DNA of 63,535 nucleotides, the filler included, from Phoronis australis (lineage: Eukaryota; Animalia; Phoronida): NCBI GenBank assembly GCA_002633005.1. It is 6 parts of 6 records of this genome, joined end to end, with 100 filler letters (N's around TTAATTAATTAA, not from the genome) between each part and the next. Parts side by side here need not be neighbours in the genome. Positions count along the whole stretch, not along the records: positions 46,425 to 59,637 come from NMRA01000293.1; 5 more parts are not named here. One strand, 5' to 3'. The notes under the pieces are model-generated. The model searched no databases, was not told the DNA's origin, and was given only the letters and a program-made list of their open reading frames with translations. Both the position numbers and the translations under genes were made by a program. How positions within the stretch are numbered: position 1 is the stretch's first letter; each line of letters starts with the position of its first letter. Of the stretch, positions 17,723 to 62,342 are shown piece by piece.

Positions 17723-17822
17723 NNNNNNNNNNNNNNNNNNNNNNNNNNNNNNNNNNNNNNNNNNNNTTAATTAATTAANNNNNNNNNNNNNNNNNNNNNN
17801 NNNNNNNNNNNNNNNNNNNNNN
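17723..17822. other. Artificial contig spacer N44-TTAATTAATTAA-N44
   Basis: Fixed 100-bp layout with stops in all six frames; occurs five times. Confidence 0.97.
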
Positions 17823-20891: not shown

Positions 20892-20940
20892 CACTGTTTC
20901 ATCTCAAACCATTGGTTATGACCTTGTCACACTTTCTTAC

Positions 20941-21123
20941 CTCCATTTGGCGAGAGTGGCATCAAGACATACTTGACAAAGGACAGGACACCATTATCAG
21001 TGATGTTGCCTGGTTCACAGAAGGCTTTCTTGATCTTCTTCTTCACCTGAGCAGCACTGTCCAGTAAGTCAATTTTGGAGTCAGCCTCCGATGAGCTCAT
21101 CTTACCACCAGTTAGGCCAGGAA
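20941..21123 (-). CDS. YARS1: TyrRS exon 7 ([22 protein letters not shown]...[30 protein letters not shown])
   Basis: AG/GT bounded, 183 bp, class I KMSSS motif. Confidence 0.97.
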
Positions 21124-21685
21124 CTACAACAACATGGAAACAATGTGACAATGATTGAGGGAGTCTGGATACCTTGAATGCAATACCCGTAAGGCTACAC
21201 ATTTTGAAAATACCAGCAGCGTTTTCATCATTAACTGGAAAACCTGAATATGTGAAGTATATAATGAAGTTTTGCACCTTCAGCTGGTTGATATGACTAA
21301 AGACTGTATCGATATTTGTTGAGACAGAGAACTAGAGTTTGGCTGTACTTCATACTTGAAATACATGTAGCAATATACATTATTTTGATGAGATCAACTA
21401 TAGAACTAGGTTATATGAGGATACGACACATTGAAAACTATCAATTGTGTAACAACAAGACACATTCATTTAAAACACCGAAGCAAAGGTTTGCTTTTGC
21501 TCATTCACTTGGCAACAATTTATGTCCAGCAAGTTTTGCCCAGTTGTACCACAGAGTTCTAATATAAACATTAATTTTAAAAAAATAAATTTACGTTGCC
21601 CTCTTCTCAGAAATTAAATTTCCTGTGTAAGCAGGTGTGTTTCATTCGTGATACTGTTAAGATTCCGATAAGGCGACCAACTCAC

Positions 21686-21737
21686 CCATTGGGTTCATAA
21701 GATGTATCCTCTTTTTGTAGCCAAGTCTGGGCATTGT
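21686..21737 (-). CDS. YARS1: TyrRS exon 6 ([17 protein letters not shown])
   Basis: CAG acceptor, GTGAG donor, 52 bp; the phase-1 junction joins exon 7 to give NPMVPGL. Confidence 0.95.
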
Positions 21738-21874
21738 CTGTACAAAAGAGAATTAAATGAAGATGGATTACAAGACATGACAGAACTCTTCAAAGAATAA
21801 GAATAAATATACGATAAATTATCAATGATAATGGTTATCATTAAACAATATGAAAGACTGACACAGTAACAAAC

Positions 21875-21955
21875 CTTTTCTGCGAATGTGAATATCTTTC
21901 TCTGGTCAACGCCACCAAACTGTGCATCTACTTTAAGGTACTCCTCATCAAGAGC
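21875..21955 (-). CDS. YARS1: TyrRS exon 5 ([27 protein letters not shown])
   Basis: AG/GT bounded, 81 bp, GGxDQRK motif. Confidence 0.97.
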
Positions 21956-22251
21956 CTTGAAATGTCATAACATAATGTTATTAAGTAAAATAAATGACAA
22001 CAATGACACCAAACTGTTGCAGGTAAGGAATAGTCTAGAAGTTTCTATAACAAACTCATTCATATCCGCAGTTCACAGGTCATCTTATCTAAGCAACCAT
22101 GCACTATTTTCATCTTAACCCTGTGTAAATATATTAATTTTTTCATTCCTGTCTTATCAAACAGTCTGACTAACTTTAAAGTATGAACACAGAATAGTTG
22201 GTTCACCTGTATTAAGAACGATGTCTATTCCTTTAATTTCACAAAAAAATA

Positions 22252-41041: not shown

Positions 41042-41141
41042 NNNNNNNNNNNNNNNNNNNNNNNNNNNNNNNNNNNNNNNNNNNNTTAATTAATTAANNN
41101 NNNNNNNNNNNNNNNNNNNNNNNNNNNNNNNNNNNNNNNNN
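41042..41141. other. Artificial contig spacer
   Basis: N44-TTAATTAATTAA-N44. Confidence 0.97.
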
Positions 41142-42261: not shown

Positions 42262-42525
42262 AACCATAACTACTCGTCACACTACCACAGCCATTTATGA
42301 CACATTTGTGCACTGCTACAATCACTACTCATCTTACTACTAAAAATGAAATTTAAAAATCAGCGCAACAACGTAGTTTTTCATGCTTAACCTTTCGCTT
42401 TAATCGCTAAAGCATTATCGCTAAAGGATGCCTGTGTTTTTGTGACATTTCTTACAGAGAAAATACAATGCGGTACAAGTTGATCCAACTTCAGAGCCTG
42501 TGTTCAGACTGCTAGACATTCCTAC

Positions 42526-42886
42526 CTCCACCGTTGCTGTAACACAGGTAGGGGAACCTCCAGACATTCCCCAACCCCACCGCATAACCGAGACTGGACA
42601 ACATGTATTCCACACGGCTGCTCCACTCCATTCGTTTATACACCGAGTGCGTTCCATCATCGTCGTCATCATCCTCATTATCACGGCCATCCAGGCACAC
42701 GTTACGGTCGATGTCGTTTTCGTCTGACAGAGTGGTCGACGTGAACTGGCTTGCTATGCTACCTCGGAAGGACTTGCCGTCGCTGTCTTGAGCGTAGGTC
42801 ACGTGACTGGAAGACTGGGCAGGGCTAAGCTGTGGCTGTTGCAGTTGTGCACTTGAGTCTGTGGCTGGCAGGTCGCTAAAGCTCAC
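42526..42886 (-). CDS. SLC6 sodium:neurotransmitter symporter exon (N-terminal tail and TM1)
   Basis: AG/GT bounded, 361 bp; signature [36 protein letters not shown] with a phase-1 intron in the GGG motif. Confidence 0.95.
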
Positions 42887-45449
42887 CTGAAAAAAGTAGG
42901 TGTGAATATTATTAGAGGCTTTATACTGATCTTACGGGGAAATGGACTGTCTTGTTCATCAAATCACAGAAAAATACTACAATACTAAAATTTGTAAATA
43001 AAATAAATTTTTAAATAAAATGAAAATAAATGAACAAAAAAATAAAAATAAACTTGTGAAAAGGAAGATGTAACAAAGGAAATCTCCAGTGAACACCAAA
43101 ATGTGTATTTCACCTAGTAAACACAAACACTTCAGTTCATTTGCAGATGACACGTTCATTCCATATTGGTCAAAGAAGGAAACACACCCTTCTCCGAAGC
43201 CTGTCACTAGCGAAGTGCCCAACATATGCAGTCATGCCTGCATGGCCCACGTAAGAAAGTCTATACAGTGCACTGAGATGCAACAAAGACATTAGCATTA
43301 ATGAGAAATAGCAATTAAATAAGTACAACAATAAATGAAGTACAGTTACTTTAGTAACAAAAAACATGAAAGTTTTAAAAACGCATTTCGACTGTGTTCT
43401 AAATCAGAAGTAATAAATCAGAAGTAATAAAAGAAGATAACTGATGATTTCACAAAACTGTAGGATTAAATTAAATATGAGATACGAAACACTGGAAATA
43501 ATAAATAAAACATTATAAAATTAAGAATTTGAATGTACAGGGCTCGATTTGGCAGATTTTGTTTGGCCACCTCATGAGAACCCCAGGTTGTCACAATGTC
43601 GCAACGCCAAATCCGAGAATGGGTTCAAAATACTACCGGAAGCAAACAGGTAGAGGTCAGAATCATTCAACAAAAAACGAAGCATTTTTTCACTTAGATG
43701 TCTTAGTTGTTGCCAACAAGGTTTGGCGACCTCAGTTCCTGCTTGGCGACCTGGTAATTTTGCCAGGTCGCATTTCACGAGTTGACATTACGTTAGGTTC
43801 AAAGCCTTGGTGTAATGCAACTTAACAATTTGACATAATCCTACTGCAGAAGTTCATCAAGTAAAATTTATTTTGACGAAATTTCTAAACAAAAATAAAT
43901 GAGAAACAAAAACAAATAGGATTTCTTTACCTTTAAAGTAAAACTGCGCTAACCTTCAGAATACCTAAAAACGCAACTTCAACAATTTAAAAAATAAAAC
44001 AAATTTGAGACCATTTTAAAGACGCCACAAGCTCCACTGCGGATACAATACAAACACGGAAAACCAGAAGTGTTAAAGCAAAAGACAATGCTACCTTTGA
44101 AAACCATAGTTTACAATCGTGTTCGAGGTGGACCCATTTTTAGGGGTTTCTTTTGGATGTAACGTGCCCACATTTTGAGAAACAGCTGATGTCCGTTATT
44201 CAATGGAGAAAACCGGTTCTCAAAATGCAGGCACGTTATATCTGACCTTCTTAATAAAGCGAGTTGGCATTCCTAATAAAACATGATGAAAGTATAGACT
44301 GAATTGTGTTTTGACATTGCTTCAATAAGATTCCCGACATTACACTTAATCTCAAATTCCAGTTTGTAGATTGTGAGGGTCTTTTACACCCCTTATTTCA
44401 GAACATGAACCTAAACACTCCGAGAAACACAAAATCAAAACAAAATCAATACCAGTTGAAACACGCATTTGGTGCAATACGAGTGACACCAGTTAGGAGC
44501 TCATTTTCTGAGTTTTAGGACATTATTTATTTACATCCACACATTAGACAATTCTTTACATTAACCGAAGTCCATATGTTAGTTTTCAGACCTCAGATTT
44601 TTGGAATCTGAAAATCAACCCGTGAATCGGGTTTAAGTCTCAATGAAGTAATAACAATTTCAAGAAAAAAATGCTAAAGAAATTCGAAAAGGCGTTACCC
44701 ACTGTAGCGATTGCTGTCGTGATTTATTGTCTGCGAAATACTGGAAAACCCATCCAACTCGGAAAATTTCTTGTTTTTCGCTCATATTCTTCAGTATAAA
44801 TGCCTTGCTTTAACAGTCAAGTATCAAAATAATCAACTTTATGAACAAAAAATGTTGCCATTCAAGAGCCTCATAGTCTTCATTCATAAAGTTAACGGTG
44901 AACTCGTTTTCTTCCAAGTGCTCTCAAGCATTGAGTATTTGCGCACTGATTCACATACGGGTATTAGTGAACATACAATCGTCAACATTTCATGTAAAAC
45001 TTGCATTTAGCACCTCATTACCCTATTCTTAGACTACATCCAGTTTCTTGACCCAGGCACCCCTTAAAGATGGCCGGTCCTGTACACGCTCGCACCTACT
45101 TTCTCCACAAAGTGGAAAAATTAAGTTTTGGTACTAATAGAAAGGATTTAGAATTTCCAAATCTTAGTGAAATGCACGAGACATTTCAACCACTACCACT
45201 TTATCACGAGGTTTATAGCTATTTAAACTGAGCCACTTTCCTCTGATCAATGGATCAAGGATTACCATTCACATGCTGTACACGTCATTCACACACGTAC
45301 AGCACGCACACGGTTTGCCAGCAATTTTTAGTGATTCGGATCATTAGTAATGTCTTGTAGATAAATGCAAAATCAGATTCATTAGTAAGTAGAGAAAAGG
45401 GTTGACACTAAACTGGTTTAAATCAAGCTATTTAAAATTCATCTACCGC

Positions 45450-46324: not shown

Positions 46325-46424
46325 NNNNNNNNNNNNNNNNNNNNNNNNNNNNNNNNNNNNNNNNNNNNTTAATTAATTAANNNNNNNNNNNNNNNNNNNN
46401 NNNNNNNNNNNNNNNNNNNNNNNN
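46325..46424. other. Artificial contig spacer
   Basis: N44-TTAATTAATTAA-N44. Confidence 0.97.
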
Positions 46425-49099: not shown

Positions 49100-49213
49100 A
49101 TCGGAAATTCTTAACAAACTGGAAGACATTATTGTGAATGTGTGTGGAAGTCTGGCTGCTGGTGTTGCGCCTTGCCTGACCTATGTCAACAGGAATACAT
49201 GGAGTAACACAGA
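49100..49213 (+). CDS. SPO11: SPO11 exon (SEILNKLEDIIVNVCGSLAAGVAPCLTYVNRNTWSNT), equivalent to vertebrate exon 2
   Basis: CAG/GT bounded, 114 bp, phase 2-2, in frame with the following exons; resembles the N-terminal SPO11-beta segment. Confidence 0.82.
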
Positions 49214-49929
49214 GTACGTAATACAACCAGTGGGGCGGCTACACACTGAGGTCGCGTTCCCTAGACACAGACACTAGCGACAAGAAGCTTTCACAAGTGG
49301 AAGATAAAGAGCGATGGATTTTATTTGAATAATTAGACATTCCAATCTCATGGCCCTATCATTTATGGTCGCCATTTTATTGACTTCGCACGTAACGCTC
49401 CCGAGCTTTTCATTCGCGTGATTTTGCAATGGTCTTGTGAAATCTTGCTCTTTGGCTAGATTCGTGCGTCTACGGAACGCTGCCCGATACTCAAGTTAAG
49501 TACCGGTCCATGTTGATAGTTTCTCCCGAAATAGCGGTAAAATATCGATAGCAAAAGTAACGGTACCTGAAGCATGGTAAAAAAATGCGTCTACAAAACT
49601 TTTCGTAAGTGATATTCCGCTTCAATATGTTGTGCGTTTTTGTAAGAACACTGTCATATCCAGCTGTACATCGGCAGAAGGTACCACGCTTTTAAGAAGT
49701 CTCCGTCTTAGGTTGCCATGTTAGACAATTCAAATTGTTCTTTGTAAACAGAATGCTGCCCAATTGTTCCAGCGTTGTTTAGCACCTGGTAGGAAATGAA
49801 TGACGTAGTTCTTTCCTGGTATGTAGCTAGAAATTAGTCGTGTCGGTGTACATCTAACTGAATGAAGTACTAGGTAATGTAACTTCTGAACAGATGTGGA
49901 CTCATTTTCTGTCTCCTGATCTCGTACAG

Positions 49930-50018
49930 GTGGGATGCGTCAACAGGAGTTGGCCTTGCTGCAAATCCAACCAAAACAACTCTTCGATTTGATTCTGCAT
50001 CTTCAAGTAAAAAGTTTG
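49930..50018 (+). CDS. SPO11: SPO11 exon (WDASTGVGLAANPTKTTLRFDSASSSKKF)
   Basis: CAG/GTATG bounded, 89 bp, phase 2-1, joins both neighbours in frame. Confidence 0.85.
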
Positions 50019-51276
50019 GTATGTCTTTCTTTAGTCAACTGATATAGTAACGTCTACTTCAAGCAAATAAAATTAACTTTGAAATAGCCTGTTGACTGGA
50101 AACTATTTTAGAAAAAGTGACTTAAAAGAAATGGCTGGAGCTCACAATTTATTTTATTCTGGGGCTTTCCATTTTGGATTTTCTTTAAACACGGTATAGT
50201 TTGCTGACACAAGCACGTGTATGTCTATGTGTATAATAAACTCATACTCGAAAAAGTAACGCTTGCAACAAGTAATTATGTATCACGTGGAAGGAGAACT
50301 AAAAAACCGAGCATTTCAAATGTATTTTGATGACAAACATTATCATGGTATGCGTTTTGTCCTAAGACCTTTCAGTTTTAATTAATTAAATGAGCGATAA
50401 ATGAAAGCAGTTCAAAACTGAAAGTGACAAAATGGCGGCAGCTATGTCAAGGAGAAAAAAATTAAAAGTCATCAGCGGCGTCAGTCAAGGGCCTACCTAT
50501 GTCATCTCCACACAATGTTGACAAGAGCCCTGATTCTCTGCGGGGGGACGACAACCTACTCTTGATCAAGCAGCTGGTGCAAGTCTTATCCCAGTGTGGT
50601 GTGGGCGGTCGATCTCAGGACGCATTCTTTGTCTAAGTTGGTCCCAAAGCTGCGGCTCTATTGGGTTCAGGTGTGGATTTGTCGCCAGCCTTTCAAGACG
50701 CCTCATGCATACCTAGGTATCGCAGATGCATCAGGATTGCCCTTGCGCGGTCACAACGGCCAGAACCCCAGGCATATAGTATAGCAGCTGTGCCCAATAC
50801 GTGAGTGCGGTATTGCTGGACATTCAAGTTTTCTCGGAGGTGAAGAAGACGCTTTTTCCCGTTGACTGAAATGCTGTCCAATACCCTGATGACGCTGCCT
50901 CCATTCAAGGGTGTCACTCGAGATATGCAACCATTGGCCTCGCTCGTACATGTTTTTCGCTGTGTAATTCATTCATCTGAATTTAACAAGAGGTCACATT
51001 TTATCATTTTCGTATGTGAACCACGTTCGTGTAAACGCAATTTCTGAAATTACAAAAGAGAATATTTGCAATGAAATTGGCATTTACGTGTTCTCTTGAT
51101 TCATAAACTATATTAGCATTTTTGAGACATTTTTGAAATTAGTCGTATCTGTCAAATTTATGTTAAAAAAGAGATGCCAGCGTTACTTTTTAAGTAGTTT
51201 TGTAAGTAAAGATACCAGGTTGTGAAAATGATGTGAAAAACTTTGCTGAAAAGGATCGTCAGATTTGAAATATATG

Positions 51277-51752
51277 TAGGTAAATAAAACAACAAGAATC
51301 GATCAACTGAAATTTTCGGATATAATAACATCCTTTGTCAACAGAAACAGAAATAAATTAGAATCAAACACTATAAAATTCAAGGCTATAATTTCAAGAA
51401 GTTTTTATGTTTAATCCATTAGGTTCAAGTGTACTGAGCTTATCTATCCAAAATTGTTCTATACACATGGATTAAACATAAAAACTTCTTAAATTATATC
51501 CTTGAATTTTTTCCGCAACAATGTATCATATTCATTACGCCACATCTTAAATGTCAATTGTCATATAGTGTTTGATTTTACTTTGTTTCTGTTTCTGTTT
51601 CTGTTGACGAAGGATGTTATTATATCCGGAAATTTCAGTTGATTCATTCTTGTTGTTTTATTTACCTATATTTATTCTACATTTCGTGAAATAATAGTAT
51701 CCTTGACAGGATCTGGATTGCCTTATTTAGTTTCAGATTTATTTTCTACGTC
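51277..51752. repeat. Second copy of the AT-rich foldback element, in a SPO11 intron
   Basis: Palindromic arms around a loop near 51420-51465; 51690-51752 matches the reverse complement of about 14780-14845. Confidence 0.85.
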
Positions 51753-52271
51753 AAATTTGAATAATAGTGATCGCCAAAAGGAGGAATTTTCCATTTTTCA
51801 AATGTTCAATTACATTATTAGAATAGAATTTTACCATCTGTGCTAACTATAACATAATTTTGTTGAGACGCTTGACATAACTAAAGATATTTTCAGATTA
51901 TTGAAAATAATTACATCCTTAAATTTTGTAAGCAAAAAAGATTCGGTTTTCGCTACTTTAAGAGAAAGTTCACAAAATATCTCTGGGAACTATTATTATT
52001 TTCTTGAAAAGTCTGACCATCTTAGAGAATTTAGGCACGTAAGAAACATAATTATTTTTATCTATTTGAAAATCGAGGCCATTATTTTAATGTTGTAAAT
52101 TCTGTTTATAAACCAAATAACAAAACCCTGCCTTCACGACTCAAATTAGGAATGGCGTTTGATACACAAAAAACTTCAGCACATGTTGAACACAACATTT
52201 GAACACTGTAGTTCATTTTTTGTCTTTAGGTGCCATGGTAGGTTTTATTGACTAAAACAAATAAATTACAG

Positions 52272-52338
52272 CTAAAACCATGAAAGTGATTGAACTCGTC
52301 TACAGATTAGTGCAGACCGACACCTATTGTACAAAACG
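52272..52338 (+). CDS. SPO11: SPO11 exon (KTMKVIELVYRLVQTDTYCTK)
   Basis: CAG/GTAAGT bounded, 67 bp; forms TKRDIYY with the next exon. Confidence 0.92.
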
Positions 52339-52831
52339 GTAAGTAGGCCGTACCTTATGGTTGTCACTTGTAGTTCTGACTATCTGTAACACTGTATTTT
52401 TTATTCTCTGGTGGCTCCGGGGTCAGCGGACCCTTCGGTCCTTTACGGAGTCAAAGTGTATTACTATCACTACTACTACTAAAGCTTCCCACGACGATCC
52501 GATGAATGTGCAGCGGAGAGATGGTCACCTCGGTCGCCAGTCGAGTAGCGTTAGGGAGCACCGGCCGGCCGTCGCCATAAAAAATCACGAATTGCTACTA
52601 TTCATCAGATAAAAATCTCCCGATCATGCTGGAAATGAATGCGTTGTATGCACCAAGCGCTGCTCGAAATGTCACTTTGGCATCAATTGAAATTATGGTT
52701 AAAAAATAATTTGTATTATTTAAAATGCTTTAAGTATTTATGATTTCTCATAAAATGAAGAATGAATTAATTCACTAATCAAACATTCAGTTCAGAAACA
52801 AAAGCTGATGACTAGTATTTTCCTTTATCAG

Positions 52832-52940
52832 GGATATTTACTACCAAAATGTAAACGTTTTTGGTTGCCAGACTACTGTGGATGAAATTATTGACAACAT
52901 ATCTTGTATGCTCGCTGTGCCCAGGTGGACATTACATGTG
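52832..52940 (+). CDS. SPO11: SPO11 exon with catalytic tyrosine (DIYYQNVNVFGCQTTVDEIIDNISCMLAVPRWTLHV)
   Basis: CAG/GTAAGT bounded, 109 bp; RDIYY..F..Q..VD..I winged-helix motif of Spo11/TopoVIA. Confidence 0.95.
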
Positions 52941-53285
52941 GTAAGTGAACTGGACTTAACCTTTAATGGACATTTGCGTTAAGCTTCGCTGTGCCTCTTA
53001 CCTGTTATAGGGTCTTAAACAGTTGCTAGGTTTTGTATTTTTTACGTTTAGTGTGACACGACACAAATGAAGTTCCGTAAACCTTTAACAACGAGTCTGT
53101 ATTTTGCGGAATTCGTATAAATTTATTTGTTTCAAACTTTTTTTGGATATAAGTGCTTGAGATGAAATGCTAAAAGGGCTGTGAAAGTTTTTTTAAATTG
53201 CCGTTTCGTTTTCATTTTATTCAGTGCAACTTTTGATTTTTTCATGAAAATCGTAAAACGGGAACATTTTGAAAACAATTCCAAA

Positions 53286-53289
<4 letters not shown>

Positions 53290-53342
<53 letters not shown>
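53290..53342. repeat. (TA)n microsatellite
   Basis: Perfect TA run of about 26 units. Confidence 0.98.
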
Positions 53343-53347
<5 letters not shown>

Positions 53348-53863
53348 CTGAAAGGTTCAGATGAATCCGATGAGCCACTTCAGACATGATGCTCCGAAGT
53401 TGACCAAGTTTGGACATTTTCCTAGGATAGTACATCCCACGCCCATCATTCATAGTTGTTGCACTCATGCCATATTTGAAGCACAACAGTGATCATTTCT
53501 AGAGCAACGGTTCAATGTGAATTCGGAACCTCACTCAGAACACAACTGTCGAGCACTTTCACCTACTGTCACTGTCAAACTGGTCTCCTGCTCAAATCTC
53601 AGATGGGACGTGGTGTTGAGTTCGGAAGATTGTTACTCGGGCCATGCTCGATTCATAAAGTGACCTGCCGTAACGACCAACTTGTTGAGCGTGGTCTCGA
53701 GCAATACCGACCTGTTAGTTCTTCCCAAACCAGAAATAACGTCTAACTTGAGAAAGGCCGGAGACGATTGAGGCCAAATTCATAGTATAAGTAGTCCAAA
53801 TCATTTTTATTCGGAAGGGCGGATTTATAGCACAGTTTCATTGGTAACTTTTTGTCTTTACAG

Positions 53864-53950
53864 CTAGCGACAACTAAAGGTCGCGTGGCAGGGGACCTCC
53901 GCTACTTTGAAGCTGATGGAAACTTTGTAGATTGTAGCTTGTCCAATTCG
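53864..53950 (+). CDS. SPO11: SPO11 exon (LATTKGRVAGDLRYFEADGNFVDCSLSNS)
   Basis: CAG/GTAAGT bounded, 87 bp, KGxxAGxL motif. Confidence 0.94.
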
Positions 53951-55074
53951 GTAAGTGTTCAATTTGAGTATGCCATTTAAAAAAGACAAAATTAAGAAAA
54001 AAAGGTAACTGTTAAACTGAGTTTCCCTATGCTGTCAGATTTTTTGGAGTTGGCGAACTGTTTTTGTTATAGTGCTCTACCCAATCGGGAATATCAAACA
54101 TCAATCGCTTAGTGACTTATACACTTGATTGCTAAACCACACAAATGTGTCTAAAACGTCTATACAAGGGTAACAGCTATTTTCATGCCCATGCTCAGGC
54201 TAATCATTTACAGCATCCCAACCGCAAAGTGCAGAAAAACCTGTCAAAAGTCGGTCATGTTTTGTCTCATCAATGTCAGAATGTCTTTCAATCTTTTCCT
54301 ATGGATACCATAAAACACGCAAGTGTTACCAAGGCAAGGTATACTGGTTTGTAAAGGCATATCAGTCGATTTGATGATAATCATGTTAAGACTATTAGTA
54401 GAACAAGTGTTCCATGGTAGAACGGAAAACCTCTCATGACCATGAGAAACCGGGACCGTCATGCTCGCGGTGAATAATCTTTGACGGATGATCTGATCTG
54501 TAATTTTAACAGTGCAGAGAGACAATGATACGACATCGTGAGACTAAATTCATCAGGTGATGAATATTTGACACCTGAATAGATCGAGATCAGACAACAG
54601 TTAATCAGCATTGGGCCGAGGTCCTCTGCTGGACTGTTGTGCGCTTACGTCACAGTTTGTTTCGTCCATACTCACTGCTGGTGTCCGGTTCGTGTACTGT
54701 TTATAGGTGAAGGGCATTTCGCCGCTGCTTAGTTGTCAGTGTTGAAATCTTAACTGAAGCGCTTTGGGATTTGAAAACATCACCATGTTCATCCAATCTT
54801 GAATTGTTGACCAATGAGCCGGCAGGTTAAGTCAAACGTATTCGTACATGGGCCATTTTTTTAACTCAAAGTGGAGCGTTTTTTGAGTCAATGATGGTTT
54901 CGATATTGTTATTGGTAACGGAAATAGAACCTTGTCAAAGTAAGGAATTTTATGAGTGTAGAATTCCTAATTTCATTCTTTTTAGCCTGCTAAACAGGGC
55001 GAAGTGCACCTTTAACTCACCTCTTACACAATCGGTTTTCTTTCACTGTCAAGCGATTTTATTCTGCATTTTAG

Positions 55075-55111
55075 GGTGTACCAGTACCTGTCCATGTTCA
55101 AGGGGTTTACA
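55075..55111 (+). CDS. SPO11: SPO11 37-bp exon (GVPVPVHVQGVY)
   Basis: TTTAG acceptor, phase 0; followed by a U12-like donor TTATCCTTT. The 3' boundary is uncertain by 1 nt. Confidence 0.82.
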
Positions 55112-55326
55112 TTATCCTTTTTATGATACGACAAAGAATGTCATTCCGGCATTTTCGTAGAGCAATATTTCTAAACATAATATGTTGCAAAAATACCCTG
55201 ATTATGCCAGGCTGGTATGTCATTAACAAATGAATACTAGGTAGATGGCTTTTATAATATATTATTAATTTTAAAAACATTTCCCAAACTGACAAAATGT
55301 AGTTATTGTACTTTAACTGTACTCAA

Positions 55327-55436
55327 ACATCGAGTCTAATGCCAAGTTCATACTGGTGGTTGAGAAGGATGCCAGCTTTCAGCGCCTACTGGATGACGAA
55401 GTGTGTCACAAGTTGGGGCCATGTATTGTAGTCACG
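55327..55436 (+). CDS. SPO11: SPO11 Toprim exon (NIESNAKFILVVEKDASFQRLLDDEVCHKLGPCIVVT)
   Basis: VEKDAxFQRL Toprim motif, GTAAGT donor; preceded by a U12-like branch point CTTTAAC rather than a canonical pyrimidine tract plus AG. Confidence 0.93.
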
Positions 55437-55469
55437 GTAAGTAGATATGCTGTCCGTTTTATCAAGGTC

Positions 55470-55812
55470 GTAGGTCCTGCCGCCGCACATGTTGAGATTT
55501 TAGCACATAATATGAATGTCGTCAGTATGACCGTTTGTGTTGTTTCTGTGTAATTGAAGATGAATACCATTTCATATCTGTTTGTAAAAAGCACTGTTCT
55601 CTGAGAACTGTATTTATATCTGAATGGTGCTGTCGTGAACCAAATAAACTTAAATTGGTAAAGCTAATGAAAATGTCAGAGCCTGTTGCTCAGATTAATC
55701 CAGTGAAATTTGTATTTCACGCCGCTGCCCTCAGGGAAAAGCTGTTCAACGTTATCCTGTAAAATTTTATGTAACACGCCGGGTCAAAGCCTTAAATGTT
55801 GAAATAAATACA
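55470..55812 (+). mobile_element. 5'-truncated LINE 3' end inside a SPO11 intron
   Basis: CCFCVIEDEYHFISVC..SLR (CCHC knuckle with EDEYHF), followed by an AATAAA tail at about 55804. Confidence 0.7.
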
Positions 55813-59637: not shown

Positions 59638-59737
59638 NNNNNNNNNNNNNNNNNNNNNNNNNNNNNNNNNNNNNNNNNNNNTTAATTAATTAANNNNNNN
59701 NNNNNNNNNNNNNNNNNNNNNNNNNNNNNNNNNNNNN
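59638..59737. other. Artificial contig spacer
   Basis: N44-TTAATTAATTAA-N44. Confidence 0.97.
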
Positions 59738-62242: not shown

Positions 62243-62342
62243 NNNNNNNNNNNNNNNNNNNNNNNNNNNNNNNNNNNNNNNNNNNNTTAATTAATTAANN
62301 NNNNNNNNNNNNNNNNNNNNNNNNNNNNNNNNNNNNNNNNNN
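62243..62342. other. Artificial contig spacer
   Basis: N44-TTAATTAATTAA-N44. Confidence 0.97.

What the first reader, a model, noticed from the sequence alone, without database searches (positions are those of the whole stretch)
55112..55326. SPO11 minor-spliceosome (U12-type) intron with apparently non-canonical TT...AA termini
Seen: the 37-bp exon ends ...GTTTACA and is followed by TTATCCTTTT. The next exon is preceded by CTTTAACTGTACTCAA, with no AG at the expected position and no pyrimidine tract. Established: U12 introns have an RTATCCTTT donor, a TCCTTAAC-like branch point close to the 3' end, and normally GT-AG or AT-AC ends. Inference: cutting at the U12 register (55112-55326) gives a TT-AA intron and the peptide VQGVYNIESNAKF, which aligns without a gap to my recollection of vertebrate SPO11 (IQGIRNLVTDAKF). 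The alternative AT-AC cut (55111-55328) is also in frame, but it needs an off-consensus ATTATCC donor and loses the Asn. Either reading is an unusual splice site in a gene essential for meiosis, and it could limit or regulate Spo11 dosage.
Basis: partly seen in the sequence, partly recalled or inferred. Interest (0 to 1): 0.8.

Follow-up and report, generated by a model that had tools for sequence, protein, structure and literature searches.

The report
SPO11 minor intron with TT-AA ends
In an invertebrate's meiosis gene SPO11, an ancient intron that begins with GT and ends with AG in humans and many other animals is cut out exactly although it most likely begins with TT and ends with AA, a pair of ends missing from the largest catalogue we could read, so the rare "minor" splicing machinery likely tolerates changes at both intron ends at once.

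Summary
Confirmed. RNA reads join the 37-nt exon to the next at one place, removing 215 nt: 91 reads in 2 of 3 RNA runs, no other joint listed. This excludes AT-AC (55111-55328), AG55334 and exon skipping as main products. DNA contigs of three runs (one sample, possibly the source) match exactly; two unspliced RNA reads from another sample carry T55112. A55326 was not seen in any RNA sample. Human SPO11 and 24 of 61 related loci have a U12 GT-AG intron at the same codon and phase, one has AT-AG, so both ends changed here. TT-AA is absent from a table of about 97,000 conserved minor introns; TT-AG and AT-AA are present. A Spo11 dosage brake is not supported: 2 unspliced versus 91 spliced reads. 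The scan noted CT- and GA-start minor introns on other DNA, not TT-AA. New variant of a known kind.

The parts
55112..55326 (+). 215-nt phase-1 intron, U12-type signals, TT...AA ends (the equal-product register AT...CA is 55111-55325)
   Evidence: 91 junction reads in X5 and X6; register by motif scores
55112..55120 (+). 5' splice site TTATCCTTT: U12 consensus at +2..+9, T at +1
   Evidence: T55112 in three DNA contigs and 2 unspliced RNA reads of another sample; 9.3 bits on a matrix from 18 distinct orthologous introns
55310..55317 (+). predicted branch site ACTTTAAC (6 of 8 to TCCTTAAC), second A at 55316 = position -11
   Evidence: optimum 11-13 nt in PMC3584512 section 4; branch use not shown
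55324..55326 (+). 3' splice site CAA
   Evidence: A55326 seen in DNA contigs of one sample only
55075..55111 (+). 37-nt upstream exon
   Evidence: joints 53949/55074 and 55110/55326, depth about 30; tblastn to P0073 residues 33-44
55327..55436 (+). 110-nt downstream exon, start of the Toprim domain
   Evidence: PF21180; read depth 34-42
53864..53950 (+). SPO11 exon, GT-AG introns on both sides
52832..52940 (+). SPO11 exon (PF04406)
   Evidence: loose read ends before 53863 match its 3' end
52272..52338 (+). SPO11 exon, by homology
   Evidence: no reads laid here
49930..50018 (+). SPO11 exon, by homology
   Evidence: no reads laid here
49100..49213 (+). SPO11 exon, by homology
   Evidence: no reads laid here

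Best explanation
This is the ancient SPO11 minor intron, removed as exactly 215 bases, likely by the U12-dependent spliceosome cutting before T55112 and after A55326, so that both terminal bases likely changed from an ancestral GT-AG. Shown: the joint, the genomic letters, and the same codon and phase as the human U12 GT-AG intron. Inferred: U11 and U11-48K bind the intact +2..+9 donor, U12 binds the branch site, and the acceptor is set by distance (-11) from the branch A, not by an AG. The +1 and -1 bases then need only a tolerable terminal contact. A likely path runs through known single-step states, GT-AG to AT-AG to AT-AA to TT-AA, or through TT-AG. The change is best read as tolerated drift, not as a regulatory device.
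For: One joint, 91 reads from 59 starts in 2 runs, none other listed. Donor 9.3 bits in the TT register against -12.6 in the AT register; acceptor -1.8 against -7.5; only +1 and -1 depart from the orthologues. A cut before A55111 would have an in-frame canonical AC at 55328 (branch -13) whose mRNA would escape nonsense decay, yet that joint is not listed. Human SPO11 intron chr20:57335456-57335797 is listed as U12 GT_AG with the same codon context (PMC8280824 supplement 1). Of 61 loci: 24 U12 GT-AG, 1 U12 AT-AG (L029), 2 U2-type GT-AG, 22 no intron at this site, 12 upstream exon not located (seven rows reassigned by hand, see full report). T55112 also in RNA sample X5. The other five introns of the gene are GT-AG with U2-type donors. 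No direct repeat at the ends (best 6 of 12) and no unusual fold (z -0.43), which argues against a reverse-transcription artefact.
Against: No lariat or knock-down data, so neither the spliceosome nor the register is shown. No genome is held, so U11, U12 and U6atac could not be looked for. A55326 rests on one DNA sample, and contigs drop rare alleles. The two T-carrying RNA reads may be one molecule or two. Frameshifted errors (TT-AC 217 nt, TT-AG 223 nt, skipping) would be removed by nonsense decay, so true fidelity may be lower than the reads show. The 24 GT-AG loci fall into about five groups of kin and are not independent. No close relative of this animal was available to date the two changes. 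From memory, not checked (paper not held): Dietrich et al. 2005 found U at +1 strongly harmful in human cells.
Confidence: 0.83

Rival explanations
1. The intron is cut one base to the left, AT-CA (55111-55325), with U11 bound in a shifted or bulged register; the mRNA is identical.
For: Same joined sequence. An A at +1 is normal for minor introns. AT-CA is listed 6 times among plant minor introns.
Against: Donor -12.6 bits, four mismatches in +3..+7; C at -2, where A is highly conserved (PMC2831892 section 17). With A at +1 the in-frame AC at 55328 should be used and is not listed. AT-CA is absent from the animal column. All 25 orthologous U12 introns use the unshifted register.
Confidence: 0.07
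2. TT-AA is an allele of the assembled animal; the animals that gave the RNA carry another last base (for example TT-AG), so the double change is not what is spliced.
For: No unspliced RNA read reaches 55300-55335. All DNA holders are one sample. TT-AG is a recorded pair (10 animals, 12 plants).
Against: Three separately assembled runs show A55326 with no variant contig listed. No exon differences are listed between DNA and RNA samples, and T55112 is shared, so the locus looks little variable.
Confidence: 0.06
3. The last A is edited to inosine before splicing, so the spliceosome sees TT-AG.
For: A-to-I editing turns GT-AA into GT-AG and AT-AG into GT-AG in a few human introns (PMC4176328 Table 2).
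Against: No long duplex covers the acceptor in the local fold (z -0.43, centroid open there). AA ends are the commonest non-canonical minor-intron ends without editing being invoked (823 AT-AA). A distant pairing partner was not searched.
Confidence: 0.03
4. The weak ends are kept by selection as a brake on Spo11 dosage: slow splicing sends transcripts to decay (a retained intron has a stop at 55231).
For: The rate-limiting model for minor introns (PMC3584512). A-type minor introns show higher basal retention (PMC8280824). The only unspliced reads across 55112-55300 are in X5.
Against: Unspliced 2 of 93 pooled (95% interval 0.3-7.6%); junction count equals the upstream GT-AG intron (91 versus 84); an upstream major intron shows as much unspliced depth. 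TT-AA is not shared by any of the 61 loci. Steady-state RNA of unknown selection can hide decay, so this is not excluded.
Confidence: 0.12

Closest known systems
Human SPO11 U12-type GT-AG intron, chr20:57335456-57335797 (PMC8280824 supplement 1, rows seen; conservation discussed in PMC12956336, passages)
   Same: Same gene, same Asn codon, phase 1, TATCCTT at +2..+8, TTAAC branch close to the 3' end
   Different: Human ends GT-AG and has a second AG 6 nt downstream (394-aa isoform); here TT-AA with one product seen. PMC12956336 describes Spo11 as a major-intron gene outside chordates; this animal falls outside the vertebrate clade, though its phylum is not resolved.
Non-canonical U12-type introns AT-AA, TT-AG, CT-AC, CT-AG, CT-AT (Larue and Roy 2023, PMC10639083 Table S1)
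   Same: Intact +2..+8 donor and branch site with changed terminal bases; T at +1 is recorded (TT-AG 10 animals, 12 plants), AA ends are common (823 and 690)
   Different: TT-AA is not in the table. It differs from GT-AG and from AT-AC at both terminal bases, whereas most listed pairs differ at one. The table covers conserved clusters only and its text says it may miss lineage-specific changes.
CT-AC U12 intron of mouse and rat Trappc9 (Lin et al. 2010, PMC2831892 section 17)
   Same: Natural pyrimidine at +1 in a minor intron whose orthologues are canonical
   Different: One base changed, canonical AC end; here U at +1 and A at -1.
Human ETV1 TT-AG intron (Parada et al. 2014, PMC4176328, passages and supplement)
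   Same: Natural TT start, validated by RT-PCR
   Different: Ends in AG; not shown as U12-type in the passages read. [quoted passage not shown]

Membership tests
U12-type (minor) intron | 5' splice site TATCCTT at +2..+8 | tested here: met
   TTATCCTTT at 55112; every position +2..+9 scores positive
U12-type (minor) intron | Branch sequence of TCCTTAAC type close to the 3' end, optimum 11-13 nt | tested here: met
   ACTTTAAC, 6 of 8, A at -11; optimum from PMC3584512
U12-type (minor) intron | No distinct polypyrimidine tract | tested here: inconclusive
   No run after the branch site, but pyrimidine fraction 0.65 against 0.70-0.75 in four major introns of the gene
U12-type (minor) intron | Position shared with established U12 introns | tested here: met
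   Same codon and phase as human SPO11 U12 intron and 25 of 61 loci
U12-type (minor) intron | Removal depends on U11, U12, U4atac, U6atac | not testable with these tools
   No genome held; no perturbation or lariat data
Canonical U12 subtypes (GT-AG, AT-AC) and the RT-RN class of Sheth et al. 2006 | Purine at +1 | tested here: not met
   T at 55112 in DNA and in 2 unspliced RNA reads; class definition in PMC1557818. Not filed in these subtypes. Termini do not define U12 type (PMC3584512), and TT- and CT- starts are catalogued as minor.
U2-type (major) intron | GT/GC donor of GTRAG type and AG acceptor | tested here: not met
   Neither end fits; the other five introns of the gene do
SPO11 / Top6A family (host gene) | PF04406 followed by PF21180; best hits named SPO11 | tested here: met
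   about 53% identity over 204 aa to named animal SPO11; 3' exons not in the window

The most novel reading that the evidence does not exclude
U at +1 and A at -1 form a working third terminal pair beside G-G and A-C (a U.A Hoogsteen-type contact, by analogy with the G.G contact recalled from spliceosome structures), so the second change compensated the first, and TT-AA minor introns are an overlooked class that aligners and annotations record as AT-CA whenever the last exon base is A.
Probability: 0.3. Interest if true: 0.72.

Novelty: new variant of a known kind. Interest (0 to 1): 0.5.

Why it matters
How the first and last intron bases communicate, and how the minor spliceosome reads +1, is still open: a 2025 review says the structure needed to explain A- versus G-type selectivity is missing (PMC11874965 section 10). 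A natural, RNA-supported intron changed at both ends, in a gene needed for meiosis and with canonical orthologues as controls, gives a ready substrate for the 16-way terminal-pair test. It also shows the SPO11 minor intron outside vertebrates, and a case that splice-aware aligners would miss or shift to AT-CA. It is one intron in one species, near to recorded TT-AG and AT-AA cases, so the gain is incremental unless compensation is shown.

Tried and rejected
No whole genome held, so no search for minor snRNAs or other TT introns. PDB sequence search with the 36-aa exon: 0 hits. First homologue search with a 44-aa frame: no candidate. Run search: no RNA holder listed; the RNA runs came by species label. 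X7 gave no exon depth, so no test there; X6 gave no unspliced read at 100% likeness. The exon after 55436 is not in the window. Tree of 32 rows: the window's protein lies outside the vertebrate clade (99/99) but in no supported group. Dietrich et al. 2005 not held; seen only as described in PMC2831892, PMC8280824 and PMC3584512, none of which gave the UU-AA result in the passages read. Supplement of PMC12956336 unreadable: its Figs S2-S3 on Spo11 intron classes may bear on the claim about non-chordates. One supplement file each of PMC4176328 and PMC8280824 was not searched; bioRxiv supplements are closed, so the Physarum list of non-canonical minor introns (Fig. S7) was not seen. A search of PMC8280824 supplement 1 for TT termini was uninformative because underscores are ignored. 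Rfam scan of the window: 0. One search used a register one codon short; redone. Rejected: assembly error, AT-AC cut, AG55334, exon skipping as main products, reverse-transcription artefact. Other TTATCCTT words in the window (3079, 18787, 47968, 56387, 63349) were only looked at; none was tied to a gene.

Full report
Observation. The 37-nt exon 55075-55111, the TTATCCTTTT word at 55112 and the CTTTAACTGTACTCAA acceptor region ending at 55326 are as described. Pfam places the SPO11/Top6A domains at 52812-52979 and 55317-55550. tblastn with eight full-length homologues gives seven exons from 49100 to 55436; joined they read 204 residues without a stop, and the other five introns are GT-AG with U2-type donors. 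The exons after 55436 are not in the window; the piece ends at a linker at 59638.

RNA. Three RNA runs with the same species label as the DNA holder were laid on 53700-55700; 18-19% of each was read. X5 and X6 cover the three exons at depth 30-42 on the expected strand; X7 shows none. At this intron one joint is listed: 215 nt skipped, 42 reads from 27 starts in X5 and 49 from 32 starts in X6. The upstream GT-AG intron has 41 and 43. No joint for AT-AC (218 nt), for AG55334 or for skipping is listed; forms under 3 reads or 2% would not be. All 120 of 120 full-length homologues need the Asn-equivalent residue that the 215-nt cut keeps; in the wider set, 63 of 69 did, with redundant cluster members included.

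Are the letters real? The X1 contig (depth 47.6) spans the stretch with 0 differences, and X2 and X3 span the intron with 0 differences. These are one sample and may be this window's source, so they exclude an assembly slip but are not independent, and contigs drop rare alleles. At 100% likeness X5, another sample and study, has three unspliced reads; two cross the donor and so carry T55112 (one or two molecules). None reaches the acceptor, so A55326 is unseen in the RNA animals.

Register. The exon's last base and the intron's last base are both A, so TT-AA (55112-55326) and AT-CA (55111-55325) give the same mRNA; the aligner reports the latter. A matrix from 18 distinct orthologous U12 introns scores the TT donor 9.3 bits and the AT donor -12.6, the CAA acceptor -1.8 and TCA -7.5; the branch A sits at -11, within the 11-13 optimum (PMC3584512 section 4). 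A cut before A55111 would also have an in-frame canonical AC at 55328, whose product would be stable, and it is not seen. TT-AA is therefore inferred, not shown; only lariat reads decide.

Orthologues. The human SPO11 minor intron is listed as U12 GT_AG with the same codon context (PMC8280824 supplement 1). A metagenome scan gave 61 loci. By script: 24 U12 GT-AG, 1 U12 AT-AG (L029), 2 U2-type GT-AG (L001, L002), 15 without intron, 17 upstream exon not located, 2 odd calls. By eye I moved L013, L031, L052, L056-L058 and L060 to 'no intron here' (continuous frames, or an intron elsewhere), giving 22 and 12. L012 looks like a spliced copy. Of the 12, L014 has a U12 branch and an AC end. The 24 are about five groups of kin. 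Read-through ORFs agree: 37 of 56 proteins lacking the upstream exon have Asp at the split codon, as a final G would give. No locus has T at +1 or A at -1. The likely ancestral state is U12 GT-AG, the site is labile, and both ends changed in this lineage. The tree (32 rows, none left out) puts the window's protein outside vertebrates (99/99) but in no supported group; earlier unchecked notes on this genome disagree on the phylum.

Mechanism. Shown: exact removal and the letters. Inferred: the minor spliceosome binds the intact +2..+9 donor (U11-48K contacts +1 to +3, PMC7367187 passage) and the branch site, and picks the acceptor by distance. The -1 base is known to vary, above all after A at +1 (PMC1635337 passage). 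All 16 first/last pairs were tested by Dietrich et al. 2005 as described in PMC2831892; I could not read that paper, and that U at +1 is strongly harmful is recalled only. The U.A terminal-pair idea is my inference from recalled structures. Frameshifted errors and retention (stop at 55231) would be degraded, so apparent fidelity is an upper bound.

Dosage. Unspliced reads at the donor are 2 of 44 and 0 of 49 (pooled 2.2%, 95% interval 0.3-7.6%). Unspliced depth near the 3' end of the major intron before 53864 is 4-5 in both runs. Nothing suggests a bottleneck in steady-state RNA; tissue and RNA selection are not on record.

Literature. PMC10639083: passages and supplement part 8 read; Table S1 has no TT-AA among about 73,700 animal and 23,300 plant conserved minor introns (totals derived from its percentages), with TT-AG 10 and 12, AT-AA 823 and 690, CT-AC 24, and AT-CA 6 in plants only. 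PMC1557818: passages and Tables 2-3, no T start, but its class required a purine. PMC2831892: passages, section 17, supplement search. PMC4176328: passages, supplement search, TT-AA 0. PMC12956336: passages only. PMC8280824: passages, supplement rows. PMC3584512: passages, section 4. PMC11874965: passages, section 10. PMC7367187, PMC1635337, PMC11347168, PMC7507305 and two preprints (10.1101/2023.12.22.573053, 10.1101/2020.10.12.336362): passages; in PMC7507305 all nine clinical +1 variants of minor introns were G/A swaps. Searches for the pair in print: 'TT-AA, intron, splice site' gave 1 listing, a rice starch paper that I did not open; searches showed none in their listings. Absence holds for this library only, and the AT-CA rows may hide TT-AA.

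Verdict. A real, expressed, exactly spliced intron with U12 signals at a conserved U12 position; TT-AA most likely (0.83). New variant of a known kind, interest 0.5.

Noticed in passing
L029, L014, L001, L002: The same SPO11 intron is AT-AG in L029 while its kin (L027-L050 group) are GT-AG; L014 has a U12 branch and an AC end; L001 and L002 have U2-type donors at the same site. The position switches subtype and class repeatedly.
   Followed up: partly
PMC10639083 Table S1: Six plant minor introns are listed as AT-CA, which is what TT-AA looks like when shifted one base; they may be mis-registered TT-AA introns.
   Followed up: no
P0148, P0152; human chr20:57335797 and 57335803: The human intron has a second AG 6 nt downstream that gives a 394-aa predicted isoform lacking two residues at this junction.
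   Followed up: partly
window 52247-52271: The acceptor of intron 50019-52271 is A-rich (pyrimidine fraction 0.35); a stronger-looking AG at 52228-52229 would lead to a stop. Homology favours 52271; no reads were laid here.
   Followed up: partly
window 53767-53833: Unspliced depth 4-5 in both X5 and X6 just before exon 53864, more than at the TT-AA intron.
   Followed up: no
window 54705-55039 and 55509-55700: High-copy repeats flank the two exons (contig depth up to about 2800, reads on both strands).
   Followed up: no
whole window: TATCCTT occurs 9 times on the + strand and 0 times on the - strand; unexplained, may be chance.
   Followed up: no
window 17723-17822, 41042-41141, 46325-46424, 59638-59737, 62243-62342: Five N-flanked linkers join pieces; the 3' exons of SPO11 are not in the window.
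   Followed up: yes
window 20930-21964 (-) and 42515-42931 (-): Exons of a class I Trp/Tyr tRNA synthetase (PF00579) and of a sodium:neurotransmitter symporter (PF00209) (59 of 92 long frames scanned).
   Followed up: no
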